Positions 19,572 to 54,354 of a stretch of 64,000 bases of DNA are shown here, in pieces (position 1 is the first letter of the stretch; each line of letters begins with the position of its first letter). The translations under genes were made by a program, and so were the position numbers. The notes beneath the pieces were generated by a model. That model was not told the DNA's origin and did not search any database. It saw nothing but the letters and a program-made list of their open reading frames with translations. The stretch comes from Saccostrea cucullata (lineage: Eukaryota): the NCBI RefSeq assembly GCF_032062105.1, contig NW_026923278.1, positions 62,001 through 126,000 on the forward strand, in the 5' to 3' direction.

Positions 19572-22050
19572 AAAGTATCAGTCTCATTATCCAGCGATGG
19601 GGTATAATGAGACACCGATGCGTTTTTTGATAAAAATGGCGTGATTGCCGGCTGGACACCTATAGTAATCGGACGGCGACTGAGGCCATTCGGCGAATCG
19701 TTGGGGGGTCATCGGTAGAAAATAAGTAGTAAAAATCAGTGATGTCTCCACCGATGCCCCACATCGCTCCTCATCGGCAACCCATCATTAACACATCTTT
19801 CAAGGATTGGCCGATGTATGGCTGAGCATCGTCGTGTCCGTTGAATCTGAGGTCATCGGGGTGTTGAGTGGTGGGCAACAGATTTCGGCCGATCAATGGT
19901 CGATGTTCGACCAAACATTGGCCCATAGTCGACCGACGTACGAACGATGTTCACCAATGTATGAGCGATGTAATACATATCGGTCGATTACCCTGGAACA
20001 TCGTTTTATGATTATCAATGCATCGCTGGGCCTTTGTAAGTCCGGTCGGCAACCATGCCATTTTTATCAAAAAACGCATTGGTTGCCCATCGTATACCCC
20101 ATCGCTGGATAATGTGACTGATACTATAAGGACTACTAAGCCGATGTGAACCGATGTTAGGGCATCGCTCACACCACAGAATCCTTGAAAGATGTGTTAA
20201 TGATGGGTTGCCGATGAGGAGCGATGTGGGACATCGGTGGAGACATCGCTGATTTTTAACTACAACTCATTTTCTACCGATGACCCCCACCGATTCGCCA
20301 AATGGCCTCAGTCACCGTCCGACGAATATATTCTTCCTATGATGTTTACTAGCAACAATTCCTGAACTGATGCGTTTGCCTCATCTTCTTCTTTCTTTCA
20401 TTTAGGATTAAACTAGTTGCAACGTTCACATGGGCGTCGACTTAGAGAATAGATGGCATCTGTTTGGTTTTTTTTAATGGTAAAAGATGTCCATGAAAGT
20501 AGTATCTATAGTTCTAAATGAATATTACGATGAGCTCTTTCGTTGTGACAAAGTAATCACCTTCTGACTTTGTCAGTAATGCCTAGGTCACATTTCCCGG
20601 CCGGAAGCCGTAGACCGGTGGTAATCGATGTTAATCCGTGGTGTTAATGATGCCCCAACGTCGGTCCACATCGGCCTAGTAGTCCTTAAACTATCAGTCA
20701 CATTATCCAGCGATGGGTATACGATGGGCAACCAATGCGTTTTTGGATAGAAATGGTGTGGCTGCCGGCCGGACATACAAAGGCCCTGCAATGCATTGCT
20801 AATCATAAAACGATGTTCCAGGATAAAGTATAAGTCACATTATCCAGCGATGGGGTATACGATGAGAAACCGATGAGTTTTTTGATGAAAATGGCATGAT
20901 TGCCGGCCGGGCACCACTAGAGATCGGACGGTGACTGAGGCCATTTTGCGAATCGGTGGGGTCATCGGTAGGAAATAATTCGTAGTTAAAATTCAGCGAT
21001 GTCTCCAACGATGCCTCACATCGCTCCTCATCGGTAACCCATCATTAACACATCTTTCAAGGATCGGCCGATGTATGGCCGAGCATCGTCCAATATCCGT
21101 TGAATTAGAGGTCATCGGGGGGTTGAGTGGTGTTCAACAGATAACTGCCGATCACCGGTCGATTTTCGACCAAACATTGGCCCGCAGTCGACCGATGTAC
21201 GAACGATGTTCACCAATGTATGAGCGATGTAATATACATCGGCCGATTATCCTGGAACATCGTTTTATGATTAGCAATGCATCGCTGGGCCTTTGTAAGT
21301 CCGACCGGCAACCACGCCATTTTTATCATAAAACACATTGGTTGCCCATCGTATACCCATCGCTGGATAATGTGACTGATACTTTAAGGACTACTAGACC
21401 GATGTGTACCGATGTTGGGGCATCGCTAACACCACGGATTACCAACGATTACCACCGGTCTACGGCTACCGGCCGGGAAATGTGACCTAGGCATAATCGG
21501 CTGATGCATATTATGTCGCTCATATATTAGTGAACATCTTTCATACATCGGTCGACTACGGGCCAATGTTTGGTCGAACATCGACCGGTGATCGGCAGTT
21601 GTCTGTTGAACACCACTCAACCCCCTGATGACCTCAGATTCAACGGATATTGGACGATGCTCGGCCATCCATCGGCCAATCCTTGAAAAATGTTTTAATG
21701 ATGGGTTGCCGATGAGGAGCGATGTGAGGCATCGTTGGAGACATCGCTGAATTTTAACTACGAATTATTTCCTACCGATGACCCCAACGATTCGCAAAAT
21801 GGCCTCAGTCACCGTCCGATCACTAGTGGTGCCCGGCCGGCAACCACGCCATTTTCATAAAAAAACGCATCGGTTTTTCATCGTATACCCCATCGCTGGA
21901 TAATGTGACTGATACTTAAGTAACTTACTTTATGCTTTAAGTATCAGTCACATTATCCAGCGATGGGGTATACGATGAGAAACCGATGCGGTTTTTTTTT
22001 TATAAAAATGGCGTGGTTGCCGGCCGGACGCCTATAGTAATCACTCAGTG
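19572..22050. mobile_element. Cluster of nested and inverted PIF/Harbinger-type MITE copies forming multiple long palindromes
   Basis: TIR AGTATCAGTCACATTATCCAGCGATGGGG, or its inverse, at ~19574, 20097-20127, 20690-20720, 20833, 21357-21386, 21890-21917 and 21940. A second TIR pair TGCCTAGGTCACATTTCCCGGCCGG at 20580 and 21493 is flanked by TAA on both sides. Confidence 0.7.
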
Positions 22051-28572: not shown

Positions 28573-31500
28573 ATGTTGTGGGTAGTTGCTTTAGGTCTTT
28601 TTGGGACACTTTGGCGGGTTGATGCTAGGGTGCTTAGTAAGGACCAAGCTGAAACCCTTCATACTATCCATAAACGTGAGTACATTTATATCTCAAAAGT
28701 TATTGTTTACAGGCCTTAGAAACTGAGCTGTATGATGTGGCAAGAGAAATTCATTTTTATCGTTTGTTGATAATAAAATATAATTAATATTTTAAAAAAA
28801 GGGAGACTGAATATATACTGTATAAAGTCACTATATTTTTTTCGAAAATAATTGATATGCGTAAAAATTGATTTTTTAGGTTTTAGTGTTTGCTATGACG
28901 ATCTTGGATGCTACAGTACCGGAAGTCCTTTCTGGAGTATCCATAGGCCTATAAATTTCCTTCCTCAATCTCCTCAGAAGATCAATACGAGATTCTTTCT
29001 TTACACAAGATCTAACAAGATCCATTACAATCAACTCATCGCCAACGACTACAACAGCATCACCAATTCTCACTTTGATAGTAGCAAGGACACTAAAATT
29101 ATATCTCACGGTTTTCTGGAAAATGGTTTCACAAGCTGGATGAGGGTATGGTAACAATGACAGCAAAAACTAGCACATTTTAAATGCATTTAATGCAATG
29201 AACTAAAAATAAAACTTCTAAACTATTCACAGGATATGAAAGATGAGTTTCTGAAGTCGGAAGATTTGAACGTGGTGTTGGTTGACTGGGGCGGTGGATC
29301 CGCCTTCCCTTACACACAGGCCACGGCGAACACGCAAGTTGTTGGCGCAGAAATTGCCAAGCTTATCTCTGTCTTAAAGGTACAAAGTTCGAATTTTTAA
29401 AAAAAAAAAAAACAACACCAAATTTGTTGATTTTTTTTAAACTGCAGTAACGTTTCGATTTGTGAACATATTTTACTTTATACAAAAAATACTACATTGA
29501 TAATAAAAATGATGACAACATTATTCAGAAAATTTCCAATGCGGATCCAATGAAGGTTCATATTATTGGACACAGTTTGGGAGCTCACATTGCCGGGTAC
29601 GCCGGAGAGAGGACACCAAACCTCGGGAGAATCACAGGTCCATTGTCTTTGTGATAAACATCGAAATCTTATTGGAAAAAAAAATATGGAGAATAATGAC
29701 CTTTTCGATTGCAACGTATTTTCCAGGTCTTGATCCCGCGGGTCCTTACTTCGAGAACACAGACAAGGTGGTTCGCTTGGATCCCACTGACGCCATCTTT
29801 GTTGACGCTCTCCATACGGACGCAGAGACTTTGGTTCCAAACGTTGGTAAGTGGACAAAATACTGAATTATAAGTTCGGTGAATTGCGTAATGGACTTTT
29901 GAGCTCAAATACTGTTCGTTATCCCCACATATTTTACCTACAATCTTATCTTTTTTAACAGGGTTCGGAATGATGGAACCTGTGGGTCACGTAGACTTTT
30001 ACCCAAATGGAGGCAAAGATCAACCCGGTTGTAATACTGATCCTTTGACACACATTCAAATACAAGGAGGAATCTATGATGGTAAACCCCATTTCTTCAA
30101 TTCTTTGAAGATAGCAGTATTCATTTTGAAAGATTCCTACAAATCAAGGAAATCAAGTCTAAGGTGCTCTTCAAATGCATTTGAAGACAAAGGGTTTGTT
30201 ACATCTCAAAAAATTAATTCAGCAGATATTTACAATACATATAAAAGCTTCACATTTTCACTGATGATCTATAAGGTATGAATCATTAAACAAAAAAACC
30301 GTTGATTCAGGTACCAAGCAGTTTATTGCTTGCAATCATCTTAGAGCTTATGAGTATTTTACGGAATCCATCAACAGCGCCTGTCCCTTTGAAGCCTACA
30401 GTTGTGATTCTTATGATCATTTTAAGGTATGACTTTGTATACTTACCATCCTGATGGAAATACAATGAAGCGCATTGAAGTGGTAAAATTTTCCGTTTGG
30501 ATGGAACGTTTTCAGCTATCTTAGAAGTTGATTGTCATATGATGACACAGCTATTTCTTTAGAGAGGGAAAACTCGGACAAATGGTTCATAAAAATACCA
30601 GTAGAATAGGTGAATAGGTATTCCATAAATATAATACTAGTAGCCAATCAAATTGACAGTCTACATAAACATCGAGTACGCACGTGTTCGACCAATACAT
30701 GTGTTATGGTAACTCCAATAAACATGATAAATTTATAATAATGTACACATTCGTTTCAATACATGTACAGAAGCGGGAACTCTCTAACTCTCTCTCTTAT
30801 AACAACTAAAAATCTCCATTTCTTTGTAACTCGTGCTGCTTGTCAAACATTACAATATTTCTTTTTTCGTTTCTAAAGAAATGGGCGTGTCATTTTGTTA
30901 TAATTGACGTTCAAAACATGACTCAGAACGTTTCATCCAAACGGAAAATTTAACTATTTCAATGCGCTTCATTGTATCTTGTAGATCTTTTTTTGTGATT
31001 CCTTGACGAAAATTATAAAGAGCTGAAGAATTAGTTCATAAAATATATGGACCTGTTGGGGTGTCAATATTTGTTGGCAACCAGGCAACCAACACTTTAT
31101 TGTTTAGGGGATATTTGATAATAAATGGGCAATTTGTATGTTAAAAGTACTCAATGAATAAATGTCTCTACGAATTCATTTGTTTGGAATGTAAATTCAC
31201 GGGTAAGGATGCTTAAACTATGAAAATTGGTCTCCAAGTGATAGTTCTATACATGACACTTGACATCCGCACAGGATGGAACATGTCACTTGGATTGTTC
31301 CGTTGCTGGTAATTGTGGAAAGATGGGATACCATGCTGGCGAGTTAAAATCGGTGAAAAACGCAATTGGTAAAAAGTACTTCTTGAAGACAACAACCCGT
31401 GATCCATATTGTGGTAAGTAATTCAAAACTTAGGACACTAGGAAGTGGTGACCATATACGACTATATTTTTGAAAGTACAAGTTGATATATTTTCAAAAA

Positions 31501-34065: not shown

Positions 34066-34906
34066 TGTATAAAAAAGCAACAATGTATCACTAGGTGTAT
34101 ATAAAATAAAAATAGAGCCTATTTCTCGCTCTTTCTCTATAGAGTGCGCATGTATTTTGCTATTGGAACGTGTATAATCTATGTTCTCACAGACACCATT
34201 ATTTTGGTTGTGTTCTATGTTTATACCGGGTATTTAAATAAAATCTAGAGATTCTGCTTTGCAACATTTATTGGCAACAAAATATAACGACGGTTAACAA
34301 AAACATGATGACAAAGTTGTAACTTAACAAACTTTCTCAGTCCGTTTTTGTAATGACTCTTGACGTTATCACTATTTTAGTTTTTATTTGTTTAAAAAAA
34401 AATTGTAACTGTTTTTATAAAATTATTCAACGTCAAGTGTAATTACGCTCTAATCTGATTACAAATGTTAAGCTAGTTTGAACTGTCCACTTGGATAAAT
34501 TTACAGAAAGTGGAGACAGATTATCTACACTGAGTTAATTTTTTTTGGTGCAAATAATTCAACGGACTCAGTGATTGGTCAACTTGATATACAATATAAA
34601 AGACGTAACTGACGAACACAAAACAAGAGACATAAGCAGAAGCATTGCTACTTTGTCTATCTGAAAGCTAAAGGCGTACAAGACAAAACACCTTACATTC
34701 ACACCCCAAAACACTGAAGTGCGCCGATTGTATGATAGCCCCGCTCTGTCTCTTGATCACCTGTATTATAGCAAACAGATACTCGTCGTCAAAAGTGAAA
34801 TTCAATTGATACAACCTATTTCATAATAGTGTATACTAGTATTGATGATAACTGAAAAGATTAAAGACAGGAAATGCGCGCATGAAGCTGTTATTGCCGC
34901 TATTTC

Positions 34907-37900
34907 CTACGCCACGCCCTGACAACGAACACGCCCTATTGTATGCGCTCCCTGCTCCACAGGTTCATTTCCTACAAAGACAATAAACACAAATAAAAAC
35001 AACAAGCACAAAACAAAAGAACATTGTCCTCTTCCTTTGGATATCATGCGGCATGCCCCCATTATTACACATTTTCTGCCCTGAAGATACACAACTTTTG
35101 AAAATTGTGAGTAATAAAAGAGGCATGTGCGGTGATATCCCAATATGAATTTGTTGTTCCTGTTTCCGGTTGTCGATTTGGCCATTTCTTTAACAAGCAA
35201 ACGTTATCCCAAGGTTCCATACGCCAGCACTGGTCCAATAGTGACGTAGCCGTCTTCAGAAGCGCTACCTTTAGAAACAAGGTCATGTGATTAAACCCCT
35301 ATTGTTAGTGTGGTTGTGTTCGATTTTTCCTATTGCAATTTCATACAAATTGACGATTAGTCATTTAGATACATAAAGAGAATTTTACCTCTCTGCTGGA
35401 AACAAAATATTGAAAATTTGTTATATGAAAAATAAATTTTATATCTTTTCTTCTTCATATTGGTTGTGTTTGCATAAAGCAATTACATTATTCCTTTATT
35501 GATTATGCATATAATTTTATAAGAATACTTTTAATTTACATTTCGTTTATTAGAATTTAAAACATAAGAAATTATAAATTTCTAGTTCGCATGCAAACGT
35601 TTTAAAGCCCAGTTGCAGTAAGTCATACATGGCAAACAAATACAAGTTTATCTACGCTAAATAGCAATATGCACATTTTTCATCGATGGCTTAAAATTTA
35701 AAAGTAGTCTTACGTATTGTTTCATAAACACACTAGATTTCTTTAGTGAGGCTACTACGCGTTAACATTTTATTAGTGTGTTCTTTAAATGATATAGAAA
35801 TTAAAATATTAAAGATGACTTCTTAAGATCGTTATGCAATGATTTCATTTGATTAAAGGACATATGTATGACAATATAAATAATTATATAAAAATTTACA
35901 TAATTTATTTATCATGATGTACTTCAGACATTTTAATAGGATTCATGAAACAATGTACTCTTGTATGCCCCATTTAAAAAGGTGCATGCTATCTCAACAG
36001 TGACAACGAGTGGAAAACATTGTTAAGATTTTACATTAAAATGAATAACTTAAACATAGTTAAAGGTATGGAATATTTAGAAGATACAAACTCACCGGTG
36101 TCTCCTGCGCGAAAAGCGAGAATGGGTAAGTCATCCTTGTATGTTATGTAACCCTCATCTGACCGCCATTGGAGATCGTTACTGTCACAATTACATGGTA
36201 AAGATGCATTTGCGCATGATTTAGTGTCACCGCATGCGCAATTTCCACTTCCTGGCTTGGCTCCAGCAAAGTAAGAAGACGGGATTTCGTAGTTACTGAA
36301 CTCACTACTTCGATTTGTCCAAAACGTTGTCCAAGAATCCATTTGATGAGGATTGTGTATAACAGAGCCTTTGCATTCCCATCTTAGATATTGTTTGCAG
36401 TATTCTGAAGCATCAATGATTGCAATCACGTGGTCAATGGATATACTATAGTTCAATTTCGCTATGTACTCTCCTGCACCTTCGAATCCAAATACTCTGG
36501 TACGTGATTCTCGGTCATGTCCTACAAGAAAGAAATTTTGTTCACACATACCAGCAAAATCATCGCTTTGAGGAAAGGTGTTTGCTTTGTCATTCAAAAG
36601 AATCGAATCGTTTTAAGCAATTCATCATTTCTGTATCTTACCTATCACGGTCAAACCGACTCCACCCTCTGATTCCATATCACAATTCAGCCATACTGGT
36701 TGTAGTTCAGGTTTCCCAGACCATTTGTCTTTTCGTTCGGGTTTTAATTGAACCATGCCACTTTCTACCATTCCCCACTCACGTAGTTGACTACATGTGG
36801 AAGCTGTAATTAACGAAGATAAGTCACTGGTTTTTACTACTTACTAGGGAAAAAAGTTGGAACAAGCTATATATCGAAATAATAGACAGCTTGTACAAGA
36901 TGCAATTTATAAATATTTGACATATTTACCAAAAGGCCTGCACGGGAAAATGTTGCAGTCCTCCGTGCCATTGCTTGTTCCTTCGCATGGTGCAGTGAGA
37001 TCACCATATGAAGTCGTATTGCATTCTCGTGTTCGCCATCTTATTCCTGTGCCACAGGTGGCGCTGCATCTGGACCAACCCGACCAGGACATCCAATCCC
37101 CAGGGACTGTTAAATGCAAATTTTTAATTATTCCCTACGTTTAATTTTTCTTTGCAATAGAAAATAATGTATTGCAAAAATTCAGCAATAATATAATAAT
37201 AAATACAAGATCGAGTAAGTAGGAAAAAAGGAGAAATCGGGGTGGTAGGTTTGCGGTGAAAGCGCACAACGTTAAACAGATAACACAGAAGCTTATTGCA
37301 GAGTTCAAAAGACCTATATAAAATGAAAATATAAAATGATGTTATGGATGTCCTTTTTAAAAAAAAAAATAATTTATGCGCAAAGATTTATTATAATTAG
37401 ATAATCGTTTTTGTCATTTTTTTTTTTAAATTGTTACTTTGAATAATTCAATCTTAGTCATACTTGGACAAGTATTTTTTCCACACTCCTGTTGTTCCTG
37501 ATCCGCCCCTTCACACTCCGCGCCACCGTATCGTGGTCCGTCACACGTCCTATTTCTATATTGTAAACCACCACCACACGTAACGGAACATTCTCCCCAG
37601 ACAGACCACGTCAACCAAACGCCGTCCTCTGTAAAAATTAAGAACCAACATTTACCAGGATTTTGTCATACATCCTATAAGCTCTACCATATTGCAAACT
37701 CAGTACATGTGGTTACATCGATAACAAACGTAATGGCACACAATGCCTGTAATATTATACATTTATCAACAATTGATAAAGTCTTGCTTTCAATCCACTT
37801 ATTTATTTTGTTTATTTGTTAAACTTTTCACTTATTATATCTCTTACCACCTACCACCTTTCTAAAACAAATAATAAAGCCACCAACTACCGGCATTCAT

Positions 37901-40900
37901 ATTGAAACTGGAAAGTGCATAGAAATTTGATATGATTTTTTTCGACCTCTCATTCCCATCTCGTTTGCATGAATATGTGGGTCTGTCGTATATATATAAT
38001 ATGTGAGCAAGATAAGACAAAATATACAGGAGACCATCACCGAGAATATTATCACAACAAATTTCCTTCACCAGAATCACGTGATACCTGGACGACCAAT
38101 CAGACGCTTTATATAAGAGCTTGCAGACTGACAGGGATGGGTATTGCAATATTGAATTGAATATTGACTACCAACGCAAGTACCACCAAGACAAGCCCTA
38201 CTACGCAGTCGCATTCCTCCGCCACAAGGAACACTACATGCGTACCAAGGAAACCATGAACTCCAACCCGTAGCTACATCTGAAGAAAGAATCTGGCATC
38301 ATATACCATTTATTCGCAAAGTTTTGCAAATGAGGAAGTCCATCTCCAATATCCAAATCCTATTTGTCTATGAGATTCAGTAAGTCATTCTTCATTTTTG
38401 TAAACATGGCTTTAATTTTAATATTATTTCCATTATCGAGAAACTTGCGGAGAAAGGATGCATTTAGTGTCTAAGTAAAATAATTGAAAATGATTTGGCT
38501 TACCTGGACAACTTTGTGTATTACAATCCTGGGTCTCTGACCATGCCCCAGAGCAATTCTTACCCCCATGAAGGGGACCGTCACATGTACGACTCCGCTG
38601 CTGAGACCCACCTCCACAAGTAACATCACAATTCCCCCAAACCGACCACTCCTTAAACACGCCGTCCACTGTAACATTGTCAGCGTTAATATAATGAAGT
38701 GAAAAAATATCATTTAAGGTTATTTGTGTTATGTAATGTAATTGCTACAAACAAGATTGAAGAAATATTATCTCAAACTATTTAACAATGTAACATATAA
38801 TTATTATTCACTTTGAAACATTAAATTTTATCAGCGAATGAATATTTTCTTGTTTAGCAATTTATATGATTTTTCTACTGTAGAATTTTAACAAAATTAT
38901 CAGATTGTAAGCCACAATCTCAATATATTCTATGTTATTTTCCTTGGAGTGCTGAAAGCAGGAAACACACAGTGAATTGCGGTCAATTCCTGTAAACTCG
39001 CGTCGTTTGACACGAATTCAAAGGAATTGGACAAGATGTGAGAAACTATATCTATAACACCAAAACACTGAAACGGTTATAGACACATCATAGATCTCGT
39101 CATCTGTAAATGAAAATTATTCTCCTTGGCTTCTGACCAGGACACGGTTGTTGATTGCATTCTTGAGACTCTTCGCCCGGTCCTGTGCAGTTTGAGCCTC
39201 CATAAAACGGACCAAGACACTCCCTGGAGCGGAACTGTATCCCAGTACCACAAGACAAACTGCACATTTCCCAGTCATTCCAGTTTTTCCAAACGCCATC
39301 CACTGTGAATGATAAAAATATTACCTTTACAACGATATAAATTTGCAAAAATGTATATCTACAAACCCCTTGGAAGCCTGAAGGTTCCCTAAAAACCTTA
39401 TTCATGTACATACCTGGGCACGGATGTGTATTACATTCCTGGTAGTCATCTATGGAACCTGTACAGTTTGCTCCGCCATGATACGGTCCATCACAGGTCC
39501 TGTTCCTCTTCTGAGTTCCTCCTCCACATGTGACATTGCATGAATCCCAGTCGCCCCAGGACATCCACTCTCCATCAACTGAATAATGAGAAAATAATAA
39601 GAACTAGTTGACGGAATTCAAATTATGACACCACAATTGCTAGATTTGGATGTAAAAGCAACATACTCGGACATGGGTGTTCATTACAACTGTTTGATTC
39701 TTCAAAAGCTCCTGAGCAGTTGTCTCCCCCGTAGAAAGGCCCGATGCAGCTTCTGTTTCTCCACTGAACTCCACCACCACACGTCAGACTACATTCATAC
39801 CACTCCGACCAGTTGCCAAACAATCCATTTACTAGAAGACAAAGTATTTGCTTAAAATTCTCCAACATTTGTTGGGCATGTAAAAGAAAAAGTATACAGT
39901 TCAATATTTAAAAATAAAATGCTTCTTAGAGCTTAACCTTAGACACATACATAAAAAGCACGTAATATTTTCCCTAAAATACGGATAAAAATCGTTTCAC
40001 CTGGGCAGTGGTGTGTATTGCAGTCCCTGGTGTCCGTACCATTTCCGGAACAATTCCAGCCGCCGTGGTAGGGGCCATCACATGTGCGATATCGAGACTG
40101 ATTCCCTCCACCACAAATTTCGCTACAGTTATCCCATACGGACCACGGATTCCAAACGCCATCAACTTGAATAATTATTTTCAATTAGCAAATCGATATT
40201 ATAACAGAATTGTTCAATGATAATTCTACCCGGTATATTATACAAAAAAGATTATCATACTTGGACAGGGAAATGTGTTGCAGCTGCTTGAGTCCTCCTC
40301 CTCACCCTCGCATGGTTTACCGCTAAAGAAAGGTCCATCACATGTTCTATTACGTACACGTGTTCCACCTCCACAAGTGACATTACATGAACCCCAATCA
40401 CCCCAAGAAAGCCAACGGCCATCCACTGCAACAATCACGTAGCAATTTATCATTCCAAACAAAATTATACAGTTTTACAAAACTATTGCGCTCTCTATAT
40501 ACACCAATACTAGTTAAGGTGCCTGCAAAACGATCTTTTATTTTACACATAAAGCAACTACTGCAGACAACGACACGGACAGAACAACAGTCATATGTAG
40601 TGTAGTATTTTTCTACAGCATGGCAGCATATTGACTAAGCGACGCTTACGAACGATACTGACTTGTCGGAATCGCAGAATTTCAACCATGTCACAAGCGA
40701 TCTGAAACAAACCGTGCGATGATGTTACGAAATGAATATGACATGAGAAGAGTGCGATTCATAGCAATTTGTAATTGTTTATTTACCTGGACATGGGAAC
40801 GTATTACACTCCTGATAATCGATCAAAGAACCGTTACAAGAAGCACCACCATAGAAAGGTCCTAAACACGTGCGCTCACGTGATTGATTCCCTCCTCCAC

Positions 40901-43900
40901 AGGTGACGTCACAATCTTCCCAAGTTCCCCAAGGATTCCAAACTCCATCAACTAGATTGAAGCATAGAAAAATTCAGTTTTTGATAGATGTTCCATTTTA
41001 CATAGGGTTGAAGTTTGACAAGTGTCACTCTACCTGGACAATTATGATCATTGCAAGTTCTGTTTTCTTGAAAATTCCCCATGCAAGCATTTCCTCCATA
41101 GAAAGGTCCAATACAAGAACGTGACCGACTCTGTTCCCCTGATCCACAGGACAGAGAACAATCCGTCCACGCTGACCACTCCATAAATACTCCGTCAACT
41201 AAAAAAACAAAAGAAAGAATAGATTCATTATTGTGGACATCCAAAGATTTGGTTTAAAAATATGAAAATTCAAATTGATAATCAAACAAATCTAGAACCT
41301 GGGCAGTTATGTGTGTTACATTCTTGAGTCTCACTGAAATTCCCCATACAGTCCTGGCCATTGTGATATGGACCATCACACGTTCGGTTTCTAGATTGTG
41401 TCCCCGTGCCACATGTCAAGCTACATTCTGTCCAGTTGGACCATGGATTGAAAACACCGTCAACTAAAAATAACGACATAAAATATTCAGATACTTCATT
41501 AAAAACTGTAGCATGATCAAGAAATACATAAAAATCTTCTACTTTCTTACCAGGGCATGGGAAATCGTTACAATCTTTGAGTTGTATGGACTCTCCTGTA
41601 CAATTTTGTCCACCAAATTTATTCTCTGTACAGTAACGGTATCTTTGAGTTTGCCCTTTTCCACAAGATAATGAACAGATGCCCCAGGATGACCATAGAC
41701 TCCACTCTCCATCAACTACAGAAATGGTTTGTTTTAGTGAGAGTTTAAAATACATTTTACAATGCCTTATGGTAATATTTAATATTGTTGGAGTTCACCT
41801 GGACAAGGAAAGTCTCCACAAGTTTCGCTACTATTCCTCGGTCCAATACAATCCTTGCCACCAAAGAATGGACCTATGCAGATTCGACTCCTGTTTCGCA
41901 CTGACCCACCACATGAAACGGGACAGTTCGTCCAGGTTGTCCATTCGGTGAAGAGCCCATCCACTAAAAAATTATATTTTAAAATTGTGTTAAAATGGTG
42001 TTAAAATGGTGTTAAAACTTATAGTTTAAGTTATGTTGAACGTAATTCTTCAGGTATTCAAAACGGCAAGGTACCTGGGCATTCCTTTGGAAAGCATTCT
42101 TGACTTTCTTCATCTGCTCCTGTGCAGTTCTGGCCACCATAGTAAGGTCCGTCACAAGTACGGTTCCTAGACTGTGTACCCAAACCGCAAGATACGTCAC
42201 ATTGTGACCATTCTTGCCAAGTATTCCATATTCCATCCACTATAGAAAACACTTAACTACAACTACTTAGCGAAAAATTGTTCACTCCACAGTAGCACTG
42301 ACGGAGATCCTTCTTTCTTCTATAAGAAGGAAGGGTAAAGCGTCTGTGCCACAGAAGGAGGAAATACAGCAACAAAAGCAAGTGGCTACATCAGTACAAC
42401 AGTGACATAATACATATGAAGTTTATACAATATTAAAGGATATGTGTGTATTAATCAGGAATGTACAGAAGGAAGTATACAAAATTTATGATAAAAATTT
42501 AGTTTATTTGAGAAAATATTCACCAAGCAGATAACCACTGAAAGCTTAGATCATAGCGTACAAAAGCAGACGATAAGCACGCTGAGTAGTAATATCATAC
42601 CAGGACAGCTTGATGGATAACACACGGCTGTTTCATTGGATGGACCAATGCACTCTGCACCACCGTGTTGAGGCTCTTCACAAATTCGCGTACGAACCAT
42701 GAAACCTCGACCACAAGATTGAGAACAATCCGACCAATTTGACCAGTTTTGCCAAAACCCATCAACTAAAATGGGGTAAATGCGAAATACATATATAATA
42801 AGGCAGCATTTTTTATTGCGATATTTATATTTGTATTAATAAGTTAGAATGAGTCTTTACCTGGACAAGGAAATGTATTACAATCTTTCACTTGGGCCCA
42901 TTCACCGGTACAGTTTTGCCCTCCAAAATAAGGACCCTCACACGACCTATTTCTAAACTGTGTGCCATTCCCACATGTCAAGGTACATTCGGACCAATTT
43001 GACCAAGTCTTAAAAACACCATCAACTGAAAGACGAAGCCATGGACATTTCACAAACTGTCAAAAAAAAATGATAAAAGATCATGCAAAGAAATACTGGA
43101 CAACTTATTACCTGGACATGGGAAGGTGTTGCAATTCTGCATTTCTAAAGAAGGCCCAGAACAGTTTTTGCCTCCAAACACAGGTTGCTCGCAACGGCGT
43201 CTGCGCCAAATAGATCCACCTCCGCAAGAGACATTACAGGAGGTCCAGTTGGACCACTCGTGCCAGAAACCATCGACTGTTAAACAGCACACAGCAAATA
43301 CACGACACAGCACAGCACACAAAGCACACAGGAAAACAAATACAGTTATTGAACACTTCAGAGATCAACTTGGTTTAGCTTTTCTTTAGACTGCGTATTT
43401 TCAAAAAATACATTTTTTCTTGTTTTGGTCGAATCAATATTTTAGACGGACTAATATATTATTTCTTTGATATATATATATTTTCGTGATTATCTGAAAT
43501 TGTTCATAACTTTTAAGTTGAAAACGTTGGATATACGAAAAAAGCCACTTCACTGCACTGCAATTCGAAAAAATGTGCGTAACTTACCGAATGAGTATTT
43601 ACAAGAGAAATAAAAATTCTGTGCCATTACCTGCACAAGAATGAGTGTTGCATAATTTTGTTTGGTTCCAATCTCCTTGACAGTCGGTGCCATTATAAAA
43701 AGGACCCGTACAACTCCGGGATCTTGTCTGTTCTCCGGTACCACAACGACGACTGCAATTCGTCCATGTACTCCAAGCTTCCCAAATTCCATCAACTGGT
43801 ATACAGGACAACAAAGACGGTGAAATACAATACTTATCACTGAACATTCTTTTGAACCTGAGAACTATGAATTGTAATTCTTACTTGGACACTCAAAGTT

Positions 43901-46900
43901 GTTGCACGTTTGGCGTTCCTCATCGGGTCCTTCGCATGGATCTCCGCCAAAGAGTGGTTCAATACACGTTCTTCTTCTGGCCTTTTCTCCTCCGCCACAT
44001 GTTACATTGCAATGATCCCATTCTGTCCATGGTTTCCAAACACCATTAACTGAAAAAAAGATTTTCTTTCTTTTTGAGAGTCGAATATGAAGAACACTTG
44101 ATGATGCGATTTTTTTTTCTTTTAAAACTCGTGTCGGATATGAAGACCAAAATTAATGCATAATACTTTTTATCAATTTATACCTGGACAGGATGCAGTC
44201 ACGCAGACTCTTTCTTCAGTACTGTTTCCTGTGCAGTTACTACCTCCGTGCAAAGGACCTATACATGTCCTGTTTCGCCACTGTGTACCGTTGGCACAAG
44301 TCACGGAACAATCCGACCAAACTGCCCAATCCGTCCACACACCATCAACTATAAATTAAAACAAATCGGTAATATTTTTTTCAATGCATACACACTAAGA
44401 TGTTCAAAGTTTGCCTTTGATATTTACCTGGACAAGGATCTTCGTTGCACGTTCTTGATTCCTCAGAATGCCCTATACATCCATCTCCACCGTGTTTTGG
44501 CATGTTGCATTCTCGCGTTCGATTCTGTATTCCACCTCCGCAAGATACTGAACAAGTATCCCATTCACTCCACATTTTCCACGAACCATCCACTAGGTAA
44601 ATACATTAAAATTAGCATATACCATCTAATTATTTGTTATAGTTGAAAGTATTTGTATTGCATGGCCATGTTTACCTGGACAAGAGAATGCATTGCACAC
44701 TTCAATTTCATCCTCTGGTCCAACGCAATCTTTTCCTTTATAGAATGGTCCTATGCATGAGCGAGAACGATTCCTTGTGCCGTAACCACAAGTAACTGTA
44801 CAATCAGTCCACTTAGCCCATTCCTCCCAAACTCCATCAACTAAAGAAACATAATAAATTGTTAACATTACGCCATCAAATTTTTCGAAGTTTAACATTA
44901 AATCTGCAATTACAGGTTAACTTGCCTGGACACTCTTTTGGAAAGCAAGATGTTGTTTCTTTGTAATCGCCTGTGCATTTTTGACCGTCATGGAATGGTC
45001 CAATGCAAGAACGAGTTCGATATTTGGTCCCATTGGCACAGGATACGGAACAGTCAGACCAAGTCGACCAGTTCTCCCAAACGCCATCCACTGTCACATT
45101 GAATTTTACATGCAGCTTATGAGTTAATGTTATTGACAGTTAGTAAATATATAGAGGGTTCTGAGCACAGAGGAAACATGCTTATAACATGCAGGGTACC
45201 GTGTGTTTGGACACAGCAGTAGCAGGCATTTTGTAAAGAAGTCTGATAGTTGTGGTTGAGAAGTTGCGGGAAATACTGAAGCTGGAAAAGGGCTATACAC
45301 ATTTATTTTACCATAGCACGAGACGTTATTGCAAGTCTCGTTTTGATAAGCTCTGCCTAAGCATGACCCTCGAGAAGTGTCGCATTGTCTTTGGCGGGAA
45401 GTTGTCCCGCCATCACATGAAGCAGAACAAGCTGACCAAGCTTCCCATGTTAACCAAACGCCATTTCCTACAGAAATCACGTGTTGTCAATCTCTTACTC
45501 TAGAGCAAAGAATGACTGAAGACGTTTTCTTCGAAAATGCAAAAATTATAAAACATATACATATGTAGCAATAAAAATATTTTGTTTCCCTTCGTAAACG
45601 CTGCCAAACCTTCTCATAAGCAAAATTTGAAATTATTGTGGTCAAACAAGTATTGCGAATTATAAAGCAAAATTTTGCGATACAGTATTATGCGAAAAAA
45701 TTTTAACAAAGTGCTGTAGTAATTGAATTTTCTTATTAATGCACAATGCAAGTGTGTAGCATTACTGTCAACAAATATTGTTGTGAGATAAAACGTTTTG
45801 CCACACATGGAGACGTAATTGTGAAAATGTGAACCCTAGAGAGCTCAGAACAGTGACGCAATATGTAAATGACAGTGAAAAACACATACAACAAGTTTAA
45901 TATCTCATTTAATAAACAAAGTACTATAAAACGGTGTACGATTTCGTGAGAGATATAACAGTGAATATAATACAAATTAATATTTGTCTTGTGCTTTCAA
46001 TTTTTTGTTAAAAAAATTACTGCGGAGAAGTTTGCTTATTAGAGAAAAAAGATTTATTAATAAATAATCAACATACCTGGACACATTTTCATCGTGCATG
46101 GTTTGAACTCAATGTCATCTCCAGGACACTTTCGACCGCCGAAATTAGGTGGAGGATGGTTACAAACACGAGTGCGCGTGCGCGTTCCATTTTCACAGGT
46201 GACGGAACATCCTCCCCAGGAAGTCCATAAACTCCAGGCTCCACGCACTGCAAAAGAACTTTTCATCTTAATTTTACACTTATTGAAAACGAACCAAGAA
46301 CCTCACTGAATTTACAAACTATTTTCAATTTTCACTATGTAATATATACTGTTTGGATTAAATGTAATATGTTTAGCTCCATTTTGAGACAAGTCTAGTT
46401 TAATTTCCTGACTGAAGAGTGGATTGTTTAATAACACCAACATTTTAGATATCTTTTTCGAAACCCTTTGTGTATCTTTTCAGAAAGTCATCAATTTTAA
46501 CTGAAAGTGTATGGTCAGCTCCCACTCGGCGACCAGTTTCCTGTATTATTACAACATCCAAACACATTAGAGTGCTTCAAAATGATAAGAAAATCAAGAA
46601 GACACCCTGTATTGTATGGACATTATGCATTTAATAAAGAAAGGGCAAATGGGATATGCAACAAGAGGCCCAGGGGCCACAGCGCTCACCTGAGCACATC
46701 AGCTAGGAAAAAAACACATATCAGATCAGAACTGAAAGTTAATTTAATTTTAATTTCCAAGGGGATCATAACTTGAGTGAACTAGAATTACATTACCTGA
46801 GGATGATTCCATAAAACATTAATCCTGGCTTTAGTACTTGAAAAGCTAATAACTATATATTCCTATGTAAAACCCCATTTTGGCCACACTTTACATGATA

Positions 46901-49900
46901 GAACAAACTTCATCAACTACCTGAGGATGATACCACATGAATCTTTCCTGGCCCAGTGGTTCTTGAGAAGAAGATTTTTAAAGATTTTTCCTATATATTC
47001 CTATGTAAAACTTTGATGGGCCATTTTGGCCCCGCCCTACCCCTGGGGGTCATGCTGAACAAACTTTGAATTTATTCTACCTGAGGATAATTTCACATGA
47101 GTTTCATCTTTCCTGTTTCAATGAGAAGAAGATTTTTAAAGATTTTCCTATATATTCCTATGTAAAACTTGATACGGCCACTCCAATGTGAACAAACAAC
47201 ATCCAAATCATCGGCTTTGTCATATCTTTCCTGGCCCAGTGGTTTTTGAGGAGAAGATTTTTTAAAAATGCCAATAATTTTTCTCTAAATCATGAAGATC
47301 TCCCCTTGGAAAAGGGGACACTCACCCAAGGATACTTTGTAGTTTGTATGGACAAGTGGTTCTTGAGAAGAAGATGAAAATGTGAAAAGAGACAACGACA
47401 ACGCCAACGCCAACGCCAACAACGACAAGAATACGCAAATTTTTTATACACACTTGAGCCTTCTATTACTTATAAAAAGTAAAGAGAACACTGCTTACCA
47501 ATTTGAGCTCCAAGAAAGCCCCGTTGTTTGCATGCTATGTCTGCTGCTTTTTGATTCCACTTCTCTCCACATACTTGTAACCATTTCTTGGTATGGCTGT
47601 TGAATATATCTACACTTCCTTCTCCAAACTTCACACCGTTCTTCAGACGCACCATTCCTTGTAGACAGAAACAAAAAGTGTGTTCAAATTAATGCAGTTG
47701 TTAACATGAAAGGGAACTTGACGTTGAAAAACTTTCCATCTTTTTACTTGAAACTATTATTTAATAATTTCATTGTTAAATAATTTTGTTAAACTGTTTA
47801 TATTCAGAAAAGACATTTTAAGTGCTAACTATCAGTACCATTGCAGTGAACTCCATCGCATGCCATTGTTTCGTTGACAGGTCCGAGACAATAACGATCA
47901 ATGCCGGGTTTTCCACCATTTCCACACGACCGTGAGCGTGAACGGGAGCCTGTCCCACAAGTTTTCAGAGTGGAGCAATCTCCCCAGGTGCCCCATTCGT
48001 CCCACACTAAAAGATCGGATCACGTCATTTATAAGACTGTGAATGCTTTGACGTGGATTATAAAGATACATATATATGGAAAAAGACATTTTATGATTTT
48101 ATACAGCTATTTTTTCAACACCTTACTTGGGCATTTCCTGAATTGACATGCTTTGTATTCGATATCACGGCCATAGCACTGAGATGAAGAAAGATCCACG
48201 CCACTACCCAGGTTTTTACATTTCCTCTCACGGACATGGTACCCGTTGCCACAAGAAGTAGAGCATTGAGACCACTCAGCCCATGTTGCCCAGCCCAAAC
48301 TGTCCTCTGAAATAGAGGTAATGAAACTCGCTATCACTTTACTTAATGAGTTCTCAAATTTAGCAAATTTCAAAAAGATATTTTTAGTATTCGAGATCGA
48401 AATATTCATTGCTTATAATTTAAGAAAAATAAGTGTTCTTAAAAAATAGTGTTTGAGAAAATACTTGAAAAAATCTGTTTTTAGGTAACAAACTTTGGGG
48501 GAACAAATCAAGAGCAGATTTCTAAAGGTTTTTGTCACCTTTCTTAGTATCATGCCAGTAAAATCGGAACTGTGGGGTTAATTAATTACCTTCAATATCA
48601 CAGACATCTCCTTTCCACCCATTCTGACACAGGCAGAAGTAGGTTCTGTTTCCCGTAACAGCGGATACCGTATCTAAGCAACGTCCGTCGTTCTTACAGG
48701 GGTGGTTTCCACAAGGTCCAACAGCATCCTACAATTTTAAACAGAGGTTCATGTTTGTACATTTTATATTAATAAAGAACTGTGTTCTAAATTACTATAA
48801 ATAACGAATGTTGCGTTCCAGATGATAGAATTTCACTTATTATTAATTTTCTGAACATCTATATTTTTTTCTTCTTCAAAACCAAAAACTTTTACAAGAA
48901 AGGCCATTGTTTTATATAAATAAAAGAAAATGGTAGTAGAAATGTATTTGAAACTATTTTAACAGAAATTTCTATATTTCCCTAAGTTTGTATATAGTTT
49001 CAAACGCTTAGAGGATTCAAACCTGACTCAGCAGATTTAGGGAAGTATTTAAAGCGGTTCTATTCAAGACACTAGTTTCCGACAGGATTCTTTGATGAAA
49101 AGATGACGAGGTAAGATGAGTTTTTTGAATGTCACTCTGATCAAAAGTATAAAAATTTAGCTGCAAAAGATAAATTGGATTTTAAAATTGAAATTGAAAT
49201 TCTTTGGACAATAGGGGTTTCTTCTAAGCTATAAGGAGTAATATAGCAAAACCACAAATGTTTTGAGATATTGTCGGGCATAAATACAAAAGACAGACAG
49301 ATGAATGGGCAGGTCCAAATTTTAGAGAAAGTAGGGGATTAAAAAACCCAATCATTCAAGGGGACTGAACAACAAAACCAAAAATTGATCCACGCAGCTT
49401 CGTACTAATCGTAATTAACAAAAATTTACAACTATATACATGTCGCTATTTTTGAAAGTTTTACCCGGACACGTCACTATCAATTTTACACGAGAATTTG
49501 TCAAATTGATTCAAATAAATACAAACCTAAAATTGAAATATATTAAAATTTGATCGTATCCTTCTTATCAGTAATAGAATATTCCATTTCTTCATATTTG
49601 AATAAAAATTATTAATTTCTAAACAAAAGCATCTTAAAAATTGAAATTTGAAAGTTAAAATAATTTTTAGAAATCAAAAGACCTGAATTTATACTATTTT
49701 TTTTATTAGGTGCAACCTTACCAATCATTAAAAAGTTCATAAAAGATAAATCTCTTGAAAATGTTTTTGAAAAACAATATTTAATTGAAATTTTAAATTT
49801 AAATTTAAAAACACAATATAAGGTGCTTTTTCTCATAAGTGACTTTTTATCCGTCTATGTCATCATTTTTTTTTTCTGTGCGTAATTTTTATAGTCTTCG

Positions 49901-50424
49901 AACATACATTATTGTAAATAATCAGTAACGTTATATTTTTTATTGTTTCCAGTTTTTCTGTAATTTATGAGAACATTTTGTAAAATGTTGTCTTTAATTT
50001 TCATTTTTGTTCAGAAAAAATTACTTTTTGATAAAAAAAAAATTAAAGCCGTACGGTCACTTACCTGACTTATAGTAATTGCGTCTTTCGGGTAATATAC
50101 AAATCCAGTCGTACTTGAATCATTGGTCAGATCCTGAGGAAACTCGAGATGCGTCGCGTCATTTAGATGACACTGACGAGTCTTTGACGCAAAGTTAAAT
50201 GATTGACATCGAGGCGTTCTGTGGCATTCCATAGCACACTGGGTGACTTGGAACTTTGTCGAGAAATTAGAAATTCGATGGTTTCGAAATTCATGTCCAA
50301 TATATGAAAGATTTGAATTCACATTAAATGCAAAAATTTTAGAATGTCTTTGAATTTCTGTGATTTGACCACAAGCGCGTGTAAAAAATAACAAAAATAA
50401 TAATATCCCAGGCGCAGTGCCCAT
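34907..50424 (-). CDS. Large secreted TSP1-repeat mosaic protein (SCO-spondin/coadhesin/hemicentin-like): SP-PAN-EGF-TSP1x2-partial SRCR-TSP1x26-CASPR-type fibrinogen-like domain, ~2,000 aa
   Basis: Exon 50424-50065 encodes the signal peptide and PAN ([20 protein letters not shown]). 48728-48590 encodes EGF ([24 protein letters not shown]). TSP1 exons at 48306-48127 and 48006-47839. SRCR N-half at 47657-47499. 26 more TSP1 exons lie between ~46247 and 36930, mostly 165 nt and phase 1-1 (VDGxWxxWxxWxxCSxTCG). Then 36803-36642, 36521-36096 ([31 protein letters not shown]) and 34971-34907 (..[14 protein letters not shown]). Confidence 0.88.
46658..47465 (+). mobile_element. Helentron/HINE element with satellite monomers, in the intron after the SRCR exon
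   Basis: aacaagaggcccaggggccacagcgctcacctgag start. acctgaggat..ctggcccagtggttcttgagaagaagatttt monomers at ~46795, 46920, 47080 and 47230. (aacgcc)n tract and cacttgagcctt end. Confidence 0.8.
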
Positions 50425-51407: not shown

Positions 51408-54354
51408 ATGATGTCACTGGTACTAATTTCGTTGGCGTTTATAGGTAAGAGGTACAATAAACTCCATATTGATAATGTTCATGACGTTAAATAAAATGTG
51501 TGGGAATAAATTCGTTTTAAAAGATTTTTATTCAAAGTAAAACACATATTCTTTGTTATTTCAAAATAACAATAGATAATTTTTGCAAAGTGTAGCTGAA
51601 TATGATATAAGCCTTCAAAAACACGCGTGAATTTCAATGTAATATTGAAACGTTGCTGGTGCTTCTCTTTATAGTCGGTGTCCAGTCAACAACGACTACT
51701 ACAACAACAACCGTAAACCCACTGGCGAATAAAACAGTCTGTTACGATCATGTTGGCTGTTTCAATAACCTCCCTCCGTTTGATAACGCTGCCTTTGATT
51801 TGCCACTATCACCAAACCAGATAGGGACACAGTTTCTACTGTTTACTCGAAGAAATAGAAACAATGCAGATATACTGGACTATGTATCTCATGCCACTGT
51901 GCACAATTCTCATTTCTCGAGCACCCAGAAGACAAAGTTCATAGTCCATGGATTTGCCAATTCAGTTAAAACTGCATGGTTATATGCTATGAAAGATGCT
52001 TTTCTTACAAAGGTAAGAATCCAACCATTTCAAGTTTGAAAAAAAATTGTGAACATTATTTAATTAATGTCTTTATTCTAGTGACTAAATCCAATACCAT
52101 TATACATAGAGAATCGTTGGTTTGCATGTTATAAACATTTTGAACTTTGAAAAAAATTAAATCTAATGAAGATATATTGCATTGGTCTACATGTATTTTA
52201 TTTTCAACTATGGTATCTGCCATTCTGCTCCAGGAAGTTCTTGGGCAAAGAAATTACTATTGTATATCTATATGTTGCAAGTACATACCTATTCAATTGC
52301 AACACCATGGACAATCATAATGTTAAGAATACTCGATGATTATTTTGCTATTGCAAGTAATTTTACTTGCAGGGGGATTTCAATGTCATCATTGTAGCAT
52401 GGGGTAAAGGAGCTGTCCCACCACATTATAACCAGGCTGTTTCCAATACCAGAATGGTGGGAACTCAAACTAGACTCGTCATTGAGAAACTGGTTCAAGC
52501 AGGAAGCAATTTAGATGATATCCACATCATAGGCCACAGCTTAGGGGCTCATACTGCGGGCTCAGCCGGAAGGCAACTGCACGGCAAAGTTGGCAGAATT
52601 ACTGGTAAGGCTTATACGTATTTGAAAAGGGTACTGTTTAATGCAAATATCAACAAGCAAGAGTATTCTGAAATTATACGATTACTTATCATGGCCTTCA
52701 GGGCTTGATCCAGCTGAGCCAGATTTTGAAAACCATCCAGCTGGTGTACGGATAGATCCAACTGATGCAAAGTTTGTCGACATCATTCACACAAATGGTG
52801 CACCCATAAGAAGAGGCGGAGCTGGGTTAATGCAGGTGTCAGGGCATGTGGATTTCTACGTAAACGGGGGAAAATCCCAACCAGGATGTCCAAACTTGGT
52901 AGCAGGGGCCTTTCAACAACTTTTTAATCACAACGTCTCTGGTAGGTTTGCGGAATTCCTTCTCTATTTGTAAATGTCCTTTCAAGAAAGAGACAGATAC
53001 ACTTAGTATTATAAACATCATTGAATACATCTGCATTGGCAAAAAGTAATGCATGATCTATATTCCATTTGATTTTTTGAAAAGTACTATTAATGTGTAT
53101 TTTATAGGCGCTGTAGTGGCTGCATCTTGCAGTCATGGACGTGCCCACGAATATTTCACGGAATCCATATTAGCAAGCTGTCCCTTTACGGCATATCCAT
53201 GTGACAGCTACGTAGGTTAAAATATTTTGCTGAAGATATTAACTAAGACTGCATGCATTTAAGAAAGATATATAGCAAACAATAGAAGTAAAAGAACTTG
53301 TATAATTTAGGAAAGGTTTATTGCCGGTGGATGTAAAACGTGTGGTTCCAGTGGATGCTCGCAGCTTGGTCTAAACGCAGAGAAAAATTCAGGGCGCGGG
53401 AAAATGTATCTCAACACTCAAATCAAAACCACCGCACCATTCTGTGGTATACTTGCATTTACATATGCTCTTTTCAAATTCTAGCATTTCATTTACTAAT
53501 GAATAAATATAATTCAATACAAAGTATACGCAAATTAAATCCATGAGGCAATTAAATTACTTGTATTCTGTTTTAGGCTACCATTATCTTATTAAAACGG
53601 TCTATGGAACAGAGGATTCCATTGGTCAAATAATGGTCACAGTGCATAATGCTGATGGTCATATACAACAAATTGCCATTACAAAGTAAATAGGGGTATA
53701 TATAGGTAAACAGGGGTTGGGTGGTAACTTTTCTGTCAATCAATAGAATCTCAAATTGATACTATTGTCAAACGAATTAATAACTCTGTAAATCAAATAC
53801 CGGTAAATTAAATATACTTCATATATGTCAATAACTATTGATGTTGTTACAATATAGTCCTGGAGCACACTTGAGAGCTGGAATGCCTCACACTCAGGTT
53901 GTTGTTCTGGCAAGTAGATTCACACACATAACATCCATAGATGTACTCTATCAGAAGAAAGACGGCTTCCTGTTCGGAAGGGGAGGAAAGAACCAAATAA
54001 CGTTAACGTCAGTGTCTGTCGAGGAAATTCAGACCAGTAATAGGTGCGCCCTATTTCTTCTGCTAGTTAGTGATGTATAGCAAAAATCGAAAATCATGAG
54101 ACATCTTAAACGTATGGTATCACTCTTGATATTGCGATAACTTGTGAATTTCAAATTATTTATTAATACATGTAGTATTAAGAAACCAATGCATTGAATA
54201 GAATCATATTTTCAGTGGAATATGTATATTTTACTGTGTATGTCCTGAATCATGTTTTCTCTTTTCAAGGTACACTTTCTGTATGAGAGGAATCAACCTA
54301 CCAGACGGAGTAGCTGTCAAAACCATGCACATATCCTCTACCACAACGTGTTAG
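51408..54354 (+). CDS. Pancreatic lipase-related protein, copy 2
   Basis: 9 exons: 51408-51444, 51675-52012, 52373-52604, 52702-52941, 53108-53211, 53311-53446, 53577-53685, 53858-54043 and 54270-54354. Signal peptide, poly-Thr, VHGF, GHSLG, LDPAEP, CSHGRAH, PLAT. aataaa at ~54380 and ~54393. Confidence 0.93.

What the first reader, a model, noticed from the sequence alone, without database searches (positions are those of the whole stretch)
34907..50424. Secreted ~2,000-aa mosaic protein: PAN-EGF-TSP1x2-(half SRCR)-TSP1x26, capped by a CASPR/neurexin-IV fibrinogen-like domain
Seen: about 34 exons splice in frame into a signal-peptide protein with no TM segment, 28 TSP1 repeats, and different putative binding modules at each end. 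Known: the C-terminal module (HDxExR..CxQYxxWEC..CACG..CNCD..W..DxG..LP) normally sits inside transmembrane CASPR/neurexin IV between EGF and LamG domains. TSP1 arrays form extended rods and occur in invertebrate adhesive and biomineral matrix proteins such as coadhesin. Inference: a lineage-specific, exon-shuffled bifunctional tether or matrix protein (shell matrix, adhesive, mucus or immune) that would probably be auto-labelled 'SCO-spondin/hemicentin-like' without being an orthologue. This is the best candidate for an undescribed system in the window.
Basis: partly seen in the sequence, partly recalled or inferred. Interest (0 to 1): 0.72.

Follow-up and report, generated by a model that had tools for sequence, protein, structure and literature searches.

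The report
Ancient unnamed protostome TSP1-rod matrix protein
This spliced oyster gene encodes a predicted secreted protein of 26 thrombospondin repeats with other domains at each end, a layout shared with other molluscs, a ribbon worm, a brachiopod and a priapulid; it likely works as a long tether in the extracellular matrix and so far carries only automatic, misleading names.

Summary
The gene is real, on the minus strand, and spliced, but three details change. (1) RNA contigs and orthologues support 26 TSP1 repeats, not 28: two exons are skipped. The resulting 1,878-aa model is identical to RefSeq XP_062601982.1. (2) The 'half SRCR' is probably an assembly fault: five other oysters have the whole domain, and a remnant of the missing exon lies in a garbled repeat in the intron. 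(3) It is not lineage-specific: PAN-EGF-TSP1x2-SRCR-TSP1xn-cap recurs, whole or in part, in bivalves, gastropods, a nemertean, a brachiopod, annelids and Priapulus. The cap is homologous to the CASPR 'fibrinogen-like' domain, but it is a widespread mobile module, and its predicted fold matches the procollagen C-propeptide (COLFI; Z 14.3) far better than fibrinogen (Z 4.9). It lacks COLFI's trimer stalk. New here: three tandem alternative last exons, conserved across oysters, swap the cap's final loop and strand; one removes a conserved cysteine. Best reading: an old, unnamed protostome matrix glycoprotein, a glycosylated rod of about 120 nm with binding ends. Function is inferred, not shown. 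It is not SCO-spondin, hemicentin, ADAMTS or CASPR.

The parts
50065..50424 (-). Exon 1: start codon, predicted signal peptide (about 20 aa, by eye) and PAN domain
   Evidence: PAN_1 E 3.4e-11; end of a 4,606-nt contig; hydropathy
48590..48728 (-). Exon 2: EGF domain
   Evidence: EGF E 9.3e-9
48127..48306 (-). Exon 3: TSP1 repeat 1
   Evidence: TSP_1 E 1.8e-13
47839..48006 (-). Exon 4: TSP1 repeat 2
47499..47657 (-). Exon 5: first half of the SRCR domain
   Evidence: 69% identical to the M. gigas SRCR first half; no Pfam hit alone
47177..47224 (-). Remnant of the missing 141-nt second SRCR exon, embedded in repeat DNA
   Evidence: 10 of 10 residues identical to O. edulis, score 53 against a best of 44 in 300 shuffles; 25-mer unique in the genome
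46659..47463 (.). High-copy repeat element with tandem subunits; this copy is riddled with short deletions, probably a merge of two haplotypes in the assembly
   Evidence: 24-41 deletions against four other copies, 0-2 among those copies
46077..46247 (-). Exon 6: first TSP1 of the long array
45312..45467 (-). Exon 7: intact TSP1-coding, phase-1 exon without support; skipped in both runs laid
   Evidence: joint 45090/46077
38504..45090 (-). Exons 8-28: 21 phase-1 exons of 165 nt, one TSP1 each; exon 8 has a GC donor; the six exons from 42239 to 40787 are absent from short RefSeq isoforms of three other oysters
38088..38279 (-). Exon 29: intact TSP1-coding, phase-1 exon without support; skipped in both runs laid
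   Evidence: joint 37628/38504; TSP_1 E 3.3e-11
37464..37628 (-). Exon 30: TSP1
36930..37106 (-). Exon 31: last TSP1, abutting the cap with no coiled-coil linker
36642..36803 (-). Exon 32: base subdomain of the cap (the part shared by COLFI and fibrinogen domains)
36096..36521 (-). Exon 33: main body of the cap (CASPR-type, COLFI fold)
35204..35268 (-). Alternative last exon A: final loop and strand with Ala in place of the conserved Cys; leaves 9 Cys in the cap
   Evidence: joint 35266/36094 in 2 of 2 runs; same exon in M. gigas, M. angulata, C. virginica
34907..34971 (-).
   Evidence: joint 34970/36095 in 2 of 2 runs
34699..34760 (-). Alternative last exon C: 10 Cys in the cap; not among the joints displayed
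   Evidence: matches the C. virginica X1/X4 tail, E 1.6e-13
34443..34906 (-). Transcribed 3' region; polyA-like hexamers at 34383 and 34267
   Evidence: contig pieces

Best explanation
One conserved gene encodes a predicted secreted, likely heavily glycosylated protein (signal peptide-PAN-EGF-TSP1x2-SRCR-TSP1x24-cap with a predicted COLFI fold) that likely acts as a long spacer or tether in the extracellular matrix, with the PAN-EGF-TSP1-SRCR head and the cap predicted to bind different partners. The 24 linker-free TSP1 repeats would form a rod of about 120 nm (about 5 nm per repeat, recalled). Splicing would tune it in two ways: dropping a block of six repeats shortens the rod, and three mutually exclusive last exons change the cap's final loop and strand. 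Shown: gene, splicing, domain order, conservation, two of the three last exons. Predicted: secretion, fold, glycosylation. Inferred: rod shape, binding, matrix role. Confidence that it is one gene of an old conserved family is about 0.95; the figure below is for the tether mechanism.
For: One contig of 4,606 nt spans exon 1 to exon 27, others span exons 28-33 and the last exons. Full-length orthologues of 1,925-1,942 aa in five other oysters are 78-93% identical, and identity is even over all domains, 70-87%, as expected of a structural single gene. The full order PAN-EGF-TSP1x2-SRCR-TSP1xn-cap is found in Mercenaria, Solemya, Tubulanus and XP_046330803; Priapulus and Mya have it without a detected EGF; Lingula, Owenia, Patella, Gigantopelta, Candidula, Dreissena and Mizuhopecten have long parts of it. 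Ends are fixed while the repeat number varies from about 11 to 26 in the fuller models, which fits a spacer. All 24 TSP1-linked caps fall on one branch apart from CASPRs (0.992 among 228 domains; 93/92 among 61). The protein has 46 WxxW, 23 C-x2-S/T-C and 59 N-glycan motifs (motif meaning from PMC11990869, passages).
Against: No tissue, localisation or binding data were obtained. The family branch has bootstrap 93, under the 95 mark, and holds 4 rows without TSP1; the rows came from searches seeded with this family. The RNA is from a relative about 95% identical, not this animal. The folded cap was an unnamed oyster orthologue (P0036), not the window's own, and the COLFI match has rmsd about 6 A and 14-18% identity. 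PAN, SRCR and TSP1 also fit immune or neural roles.
Confidence: 0.55

Rival explanations
1. A soluble or mucosal pattern-recognition and agglutination protein, like properdin or DMBT1, with last-exon variants widening ligand range.
For: PAN, SRCR and TSP1 occur in such proteins (recalled). Three conserved cap variants exist. SRCR and TSP1 proteins occur in limpet mucus (PMC7333891, passages).
Against: Only one gene of this family was found in the genome: the other three cap matches have no TSP1 exon in the stretches fetched. Conservation is high and even, unlike expanded, fast-changing oyster immune families (recalled).
Confidence: 0.15
2. A nervous-system matrix protein that works like SCO-spondin or a secreted neurexin-type organiser, by convergence.
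For: TSP1 number (26) is close to that of SCO-spondin (25, PMC11990869 table passage); the cap is homologous to the CASPR domain; it is kept across protostomes with very different body coverings.
Against: No vWD, C8, TIL, LDLa or cystine-knot domain. The cap does not group with CASPRs. No expression data.
Confidence: 0.13
3. The cap nucleates trimers as in procollagen, giving a three-armed or bundled fibre; the isoform with an odd cysteine cross-links it.
For: Best structural match is the procollagen C-propeptide. Four relatives carry the cap directly after collagen repeats. Isoform A has 9 Cys.
Against: The coiled-coil stalk and the inter-chain cysteine pair that define the trimer (PMC5353611, passages) are absent; the acidic loop of the base is degenerate in oysters. 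The domain also occurs internally and in tandem copies.
Confidence: 0.1
4. An oyster- or bivalve-specific shell, cement or adhesive protein made by recent exon shuffling.
For: Net acidic; TSP1 proteins such as coadhesin occur in coral skeleton (PMC3748352, passages).
Against: Same layout in Priapulus, a nemertean and annelids. Co-option into shell in oysters is not excluded.
Confidence: 0.05
5. Two neighbouring genes or transcription units, split at the intron between exons 27 and 28.
For: Contigs break at, and run into, this intron in three runs; two unnamed oyster ORFs begin inside it.
Against: In run X3 contigs end exactly at both splice sites, as at a branch between spliced and unspliced forms. 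Continuous models exist in six oysters and four other phyla. The 3' part has no signal peptide.
Confidence: 0.03

Closest known systems
SCO-spondin (the automatic RefSeq label)
   Same: Large secreted glycoprotein with about 25 TSP1 repeats.
   Different: None of vWD, C8, TIL, LDLa, cystine knot (domain list from PMC7333891 passages); has PAN, SRCR and a COLFI-fold cap instead.
CASPR/CNTNAP and neurexin IV
   Same: The cap aligns over 200 columns with the CNTNAP2 'fibrinogen-like' domain, cysteines included.
   Different: No F5/8, laminin-G or transmembrane part; the cap is terminal and lies on another branch.
Fibrillar procollagen C-propeptide (COLFI; PDB 4ae2, 5k31)
   Same: Best fold match over the whole cap: E 3e-8, 238 columns; Z 14.3, rmsd 6.1, 194 aligned; C-terminal position.
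   Different: No triple helix, no coiled-coil stalk, no inter-chain Cys pair; an extra five-cysteine knot.
Coadhesin, hemicentin, ADAMTS/adt-1, properdin
   Same: TSP1 arrays in secreted or matrix proteins.
   Different: No VWA, F5/8, Ig, G2F or metalloprotease domain in Pfam; their domain lists are recalled.
Fibrinogen-related proteins (ficolin, angiopoietin, FREP)
   Same: The first 110-145 columns (base subdomain) match.
   Different: The rest does not: E 5e-4 or worse, Z 4.9 or less.

Membership tests
SCO-spondin | vWD, C8, TIL, LDLa and cystine-knot domains | tested here: not met
   Pfam at E 0.05 on P0013 and P0019 gives TSP1 families, PAN, weak SRCR and one spurious family only; all residues are accounted for by other domains
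SCO-spondin | Long TSP1 array in a secreted protein | tested here: met
   26 TSP_1 stretches; N-terminal hydrophobic stretch only
CASPR/neurexin IV | CASPR-type 'fibrinogen-like' domain | tested here: met
   HH probability 99.96 with CNTNAP2; 34 of 54 hits carry F5/8 and laminin-G domains
CASPR/neurexin IV | F5/8 and laminin-G domains and a transmembrane helix | tested here: not met
CASPR/neurexin IV | Cap nested among CASPR domains in a tree | tested here: not met
   Separate branches; support 93/92, three CASPR-type rows only
COLFI (procollagen C-propeptide) | Base-plus-petal fold | tested here: met
   Foldseek E 3e-8; Z 14.3 with next row 6.2; COLFI hit in 27 of 70 relatives, though not in the oyster domain itself
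COLFI (procollagen C-propeptide) | Coiled-coil stalk, inter-chain Cys47-Cys64 pair, upstream triple helix | tested here: not met
   Last TSP1 abuts the base; only two Cys in the base; features from PMC5353611 passages
COLFI (procollagen C-propeptide) | Trimer formation and calcium binding | not testable with these tools
   Needs biophysics; the acidic base loop is kept in some orthologues and degenerate in oysters
Fibrinogen-related proteins (FReD) | Whole fibrinogen C-terminal fold | tested here: not met
   Listed fibrinogen-type chains align over only 111-147 columns, Z up to 4.9
Hemicentin / ADAMTS / coadhesin | VWA, Ig and G2F; metalloprotease; F5/8 and VWA (recalled) | tested here: not met

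The most novel reading that the evidence does not exclude
An unnamed matrix protein family as old as protostomes, whose COLFI-fold cap is switched by three mutually exclusive last exons kept across oysters; one isoform frees a cysteine and so toggles covalent polymerisation of 120-nm rods into fibres or gels. A corollary is that the 'fibrinogen-like' domain of human CNTNAP2 is a collagen C-propeptide fold.
Probability: 0.2. Interest if true: 0.72.

Novelty: new variant of a known kind. Interest (0 to 1): 0.42.

Why it matters
A gene kept with the same domain order from oysters to Priapulus, yet hidden under four wrong names (SCO-spondin, hemicentin-1, adt-1, contactin-associated protein-like), is a ready target for studies of protostome matrix. 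Omics papers that read 'SCO-spondin-like' literally may be misled. The cap shows that the CASPR 'fibrinogen-like' domain belongs to a large mobile family with a COLFI fold and no solved structure among the PDB hits, which bears on how CNTNAP2 variants are interpreted. All domains are known types and no function is shown, so interest is moderate.

Tried and rejected
Trimer prediction of the cap (three copies): no answer, score 0.00 in both runs, alignment not used, controls not folded; it counts neither way. No RNA holder on record was listed for the stretch; tissue labels were not available, and contig depths cannot rank parts. Search of the genome with the M. gigas second SRCR half: not found with this query; a 24-base pattern from the relative's exon end had no match in the window. 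Single-sequence PDB search with the cap gave nothing significant. No deuterostome, arthropod or cnidarian member of the TSP1 family appeared: 5 of 54 hits carry TSP1 and all are protostome, but these searches are word-limited or cut at 150, so absence is not shown. Exons 7 and 29 have no near copy elsewhere in the genome. Ten paper searches found nothing on this architecture, on six oyster accessions, or linking COLFI with CASPR among the listed rows; subscription papers and supplements were not seen, and shell or mucus proteome tables could list the protein. The 'SCO-spondin-like' genes in PMC9498863 could not be tied to this orthologue. Three look-ups of earlier findings returned nothing. 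Rows dropped before trees: domains under 150 aa and near-duplicate oyster isoforms; all but 31 of the non-family, non-CASPR rows (24 drawn at random from 175, plus named picks) and 7 fragments.

Full report
Observation. The gene lies on the minus strand. Joining 33 shared exons and a last exon gives 1,994 aa with a single stop, 28 six-cysteine TSP1 exons all in phase 1, and no hydrophobic stretch besides the N-terminus. Pfam finds PAN, EGF and TSP1 in single exons and nothing in the half SRCR or the cap.

RNA. Four runs were laid, then two of them again without the intronic repeat. They are about 95% identical to the window, so they come from a relative. Three are RNA only by guess, but their exon-exon joints show splicing. 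Of 28 joints, 15 were displayed; they match the model, include the GC donor of exon 8, skip exons 7 and 29 in both runs, and use two different last exons. A contig of 4,606 nt holds exon 6 at 3301-3472 and exon 1 at 4258-4606 (taken as the same record from its length, depth and strand). The 3,300 bases before exon 6 equal exons 8-27. The gap between exons 6 and 1 is 787 bases, 141 more than exons 2-5, and the bases next to exon 6 read as the end of an SRCR domain.

Corrected model. Without exons 7 and 29 the protein has 1,878 aa and is identical to RefSeq XP_062601982.1, labelled 'SCO-spondin-like [Saccostrea cucullata]'. Orthologues in S. echinata (92.6%), O. edulis (82.5%), M. gigas and M. 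angulata (79.6%) and C. virginica (78.8%) differ mainly by a 47-aa insert that completes the SRCR. Exons 7 and 29 keep open frames, six cysteines and good splice sites but match no stored protein above 50%; they may be rare cassette exons.

The half SRCR. A profile of the missing 47 aa finds one weak hit in the window, in the right intron. It has 10 of 10 residues identical to O. edulis and scores 53 against a best of 44 in 300 shuffles; with three other oysters the margins are slight, 46/45, 43/43 and 42/40. The stretch is unique in the genome but is interleaved with a high-copy repeat. This repeat copy has 24-41 short deletions against four other copies, which differ from each other by 0-2. 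That pattern suggests a consensus merged from an allele with the element and one without it. I put this at about 75%; a real in-frame loss remains possible.

Range. Searches with the cap found long relatives in Solemya, Tegillarca, Mercenaria, Dreissena, Mizuhopecten, Mya, Gigantopelta, Patella, Candidula, Nucella, Tubulanus, Owenia, Dimorphilus, Lingula and Priapulus. Profiles built here give PAN-EGF-TSP1x2-SRCR-TSP1xn-cap for Mercenaria, Solemya, Tubulanus and XP_046330803, PAN-TSP1x2-SRCR-TSP1x26-cap for Priapulus, and truncated versions for partial models. The 24 TSP1-linked caps share a branch: 35 tips with local support 0.992 of 228 domains, and 28 rows at 93/92 of 61, with CASPR-type rows outside. 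The layout thus seems to predate the split of spiralians and ecdysozoans. In this genome the other three cap matches look like neurexin IV, a tandem array and one more gene, none with TSP1 exons in the stretches fetched.

The cap. But 1,274 clusters match it; among the best 150 the last copy is terminal in 122 and 43 have several copies, after Ig, PAN, SRCR or collagen repeats. COLFI matches 27 of 70 relatives and Fibrinogen_C 15; the language-model search points the same way. A model of an oyster orthologue, with pLDDT mostly above 90 in the cap, matches procollagen C-propeptides over 235-247 columns at E 3e-8 to 1e-6, and fibrinogen-type domains over only 111-147 columns. The independent aligner gives Z 14.3 for 5k31, 6.2 for the next row and 4.9 for fibrinogen. 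The stalk and inter-chain disulfide that drive the procollagen trimer (PMC5353611, passages) are missing, so the fold is shared but trimerisation is not implied. I recall that structure databases may already assign this superfamily to CASPRs; I could not check that.

Alternative ends. Three tandem exons follow exon 33. Each supplies an acidic loop and the last strand (residues 257-268 of the model). A and B are spliced in both runs; A, B and C all occur in C. virginica RefSeq isoforms, A and B in M. gigas and M. angulata. A has Ala where B, C and 17 of 18 non-oyster relatives have Cys (one of the 17 read by eye, the 18th lacks the exon), leaving nine cysteines. By parity, the invariant cysteine just before the conserved Gln (C150 of P0036) would be left unpaired; this is inference. 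Short isoforms of three oysters also drop the same six TSP1 exons.

How it likely works. Secretion through the signal peptide, with C-mannose, O-fucose and N-glycans on the repeats (motif counts; consensus from PMC11990869, passages), would give an acidic rod. Fixed ends, variable repeat number, even conservation and apparent single copy fit a spacer that links two partners in the matrix. Immune, neural and trimer readings remain open, as no expression or binding data were obtained.

Literature. I read passages of PMC7333891, PMC9498863, PMC3748352, PMC11990869 and PMC5353611; other papers only as search listings. Ten searches showed no description of this family. Supplements were not opened.

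Verdict. Real gene, already annotated under a wrong automatic name; an old and apparently undescribed family built from known domains, with a conserved splice switch in its cap. New variant of a known kind; interest 0.42.

Noticed in passing
window 38669-39137: Contigs of three runs extend into the intron between exons 27 and 28, and two unnamed oyster ORFs (P0031, P0034) begin in it with sequence similar to the window's; retained intron or internal start, unexplained.
   Followed up: partly
window 28852-30278, 51611-52970, 58212-60074 (+): At least three lipase-like genes flank the gene on the opposite strand (Pfam Lipase for two exons).
   Followed up: partly
window 8953-9411 (-): Profilin open reading frame without introns over the domain (E 1.7e-32).
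   Followed up: partly
window 19792-21764: Several similar open stretches on both strands, probably a tandem or inverted repeat; G+C is raised at 20001-22000.
   Followed up: no
window 13790-14293: Short-unit tandem repeat giving repetitive open frames.
   Followed up: no
L010 (G000:C15401:363000-372900): Gene with many tandem copies of the same cap domain; relatives of about 2,600 aa have seven copies plus EGF and PF00094 domains.
   Followed up: partly
proteins P0042, P0044, P0047, P0213-P0219, P0223: Uncharacterised vertebrate proteins (sharks, ray, bichir, sturgeon, bowfin, axolotl) with CUB, link and SRCR domains ending in two copies of the cap.
   Followed up: no
proteins P0097, P0164, P0183, P0187: Short proteins, two of them from amphioxus and a tunicate, with collagen repeats followed by the cap, a ficolin-like layout.
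   Followed up: partly
L007 (G000:C20558:85000-94900): Cap exons resembling Lingula neurexin-4; probably this genome's neurexin IV.
   Followed up: partly
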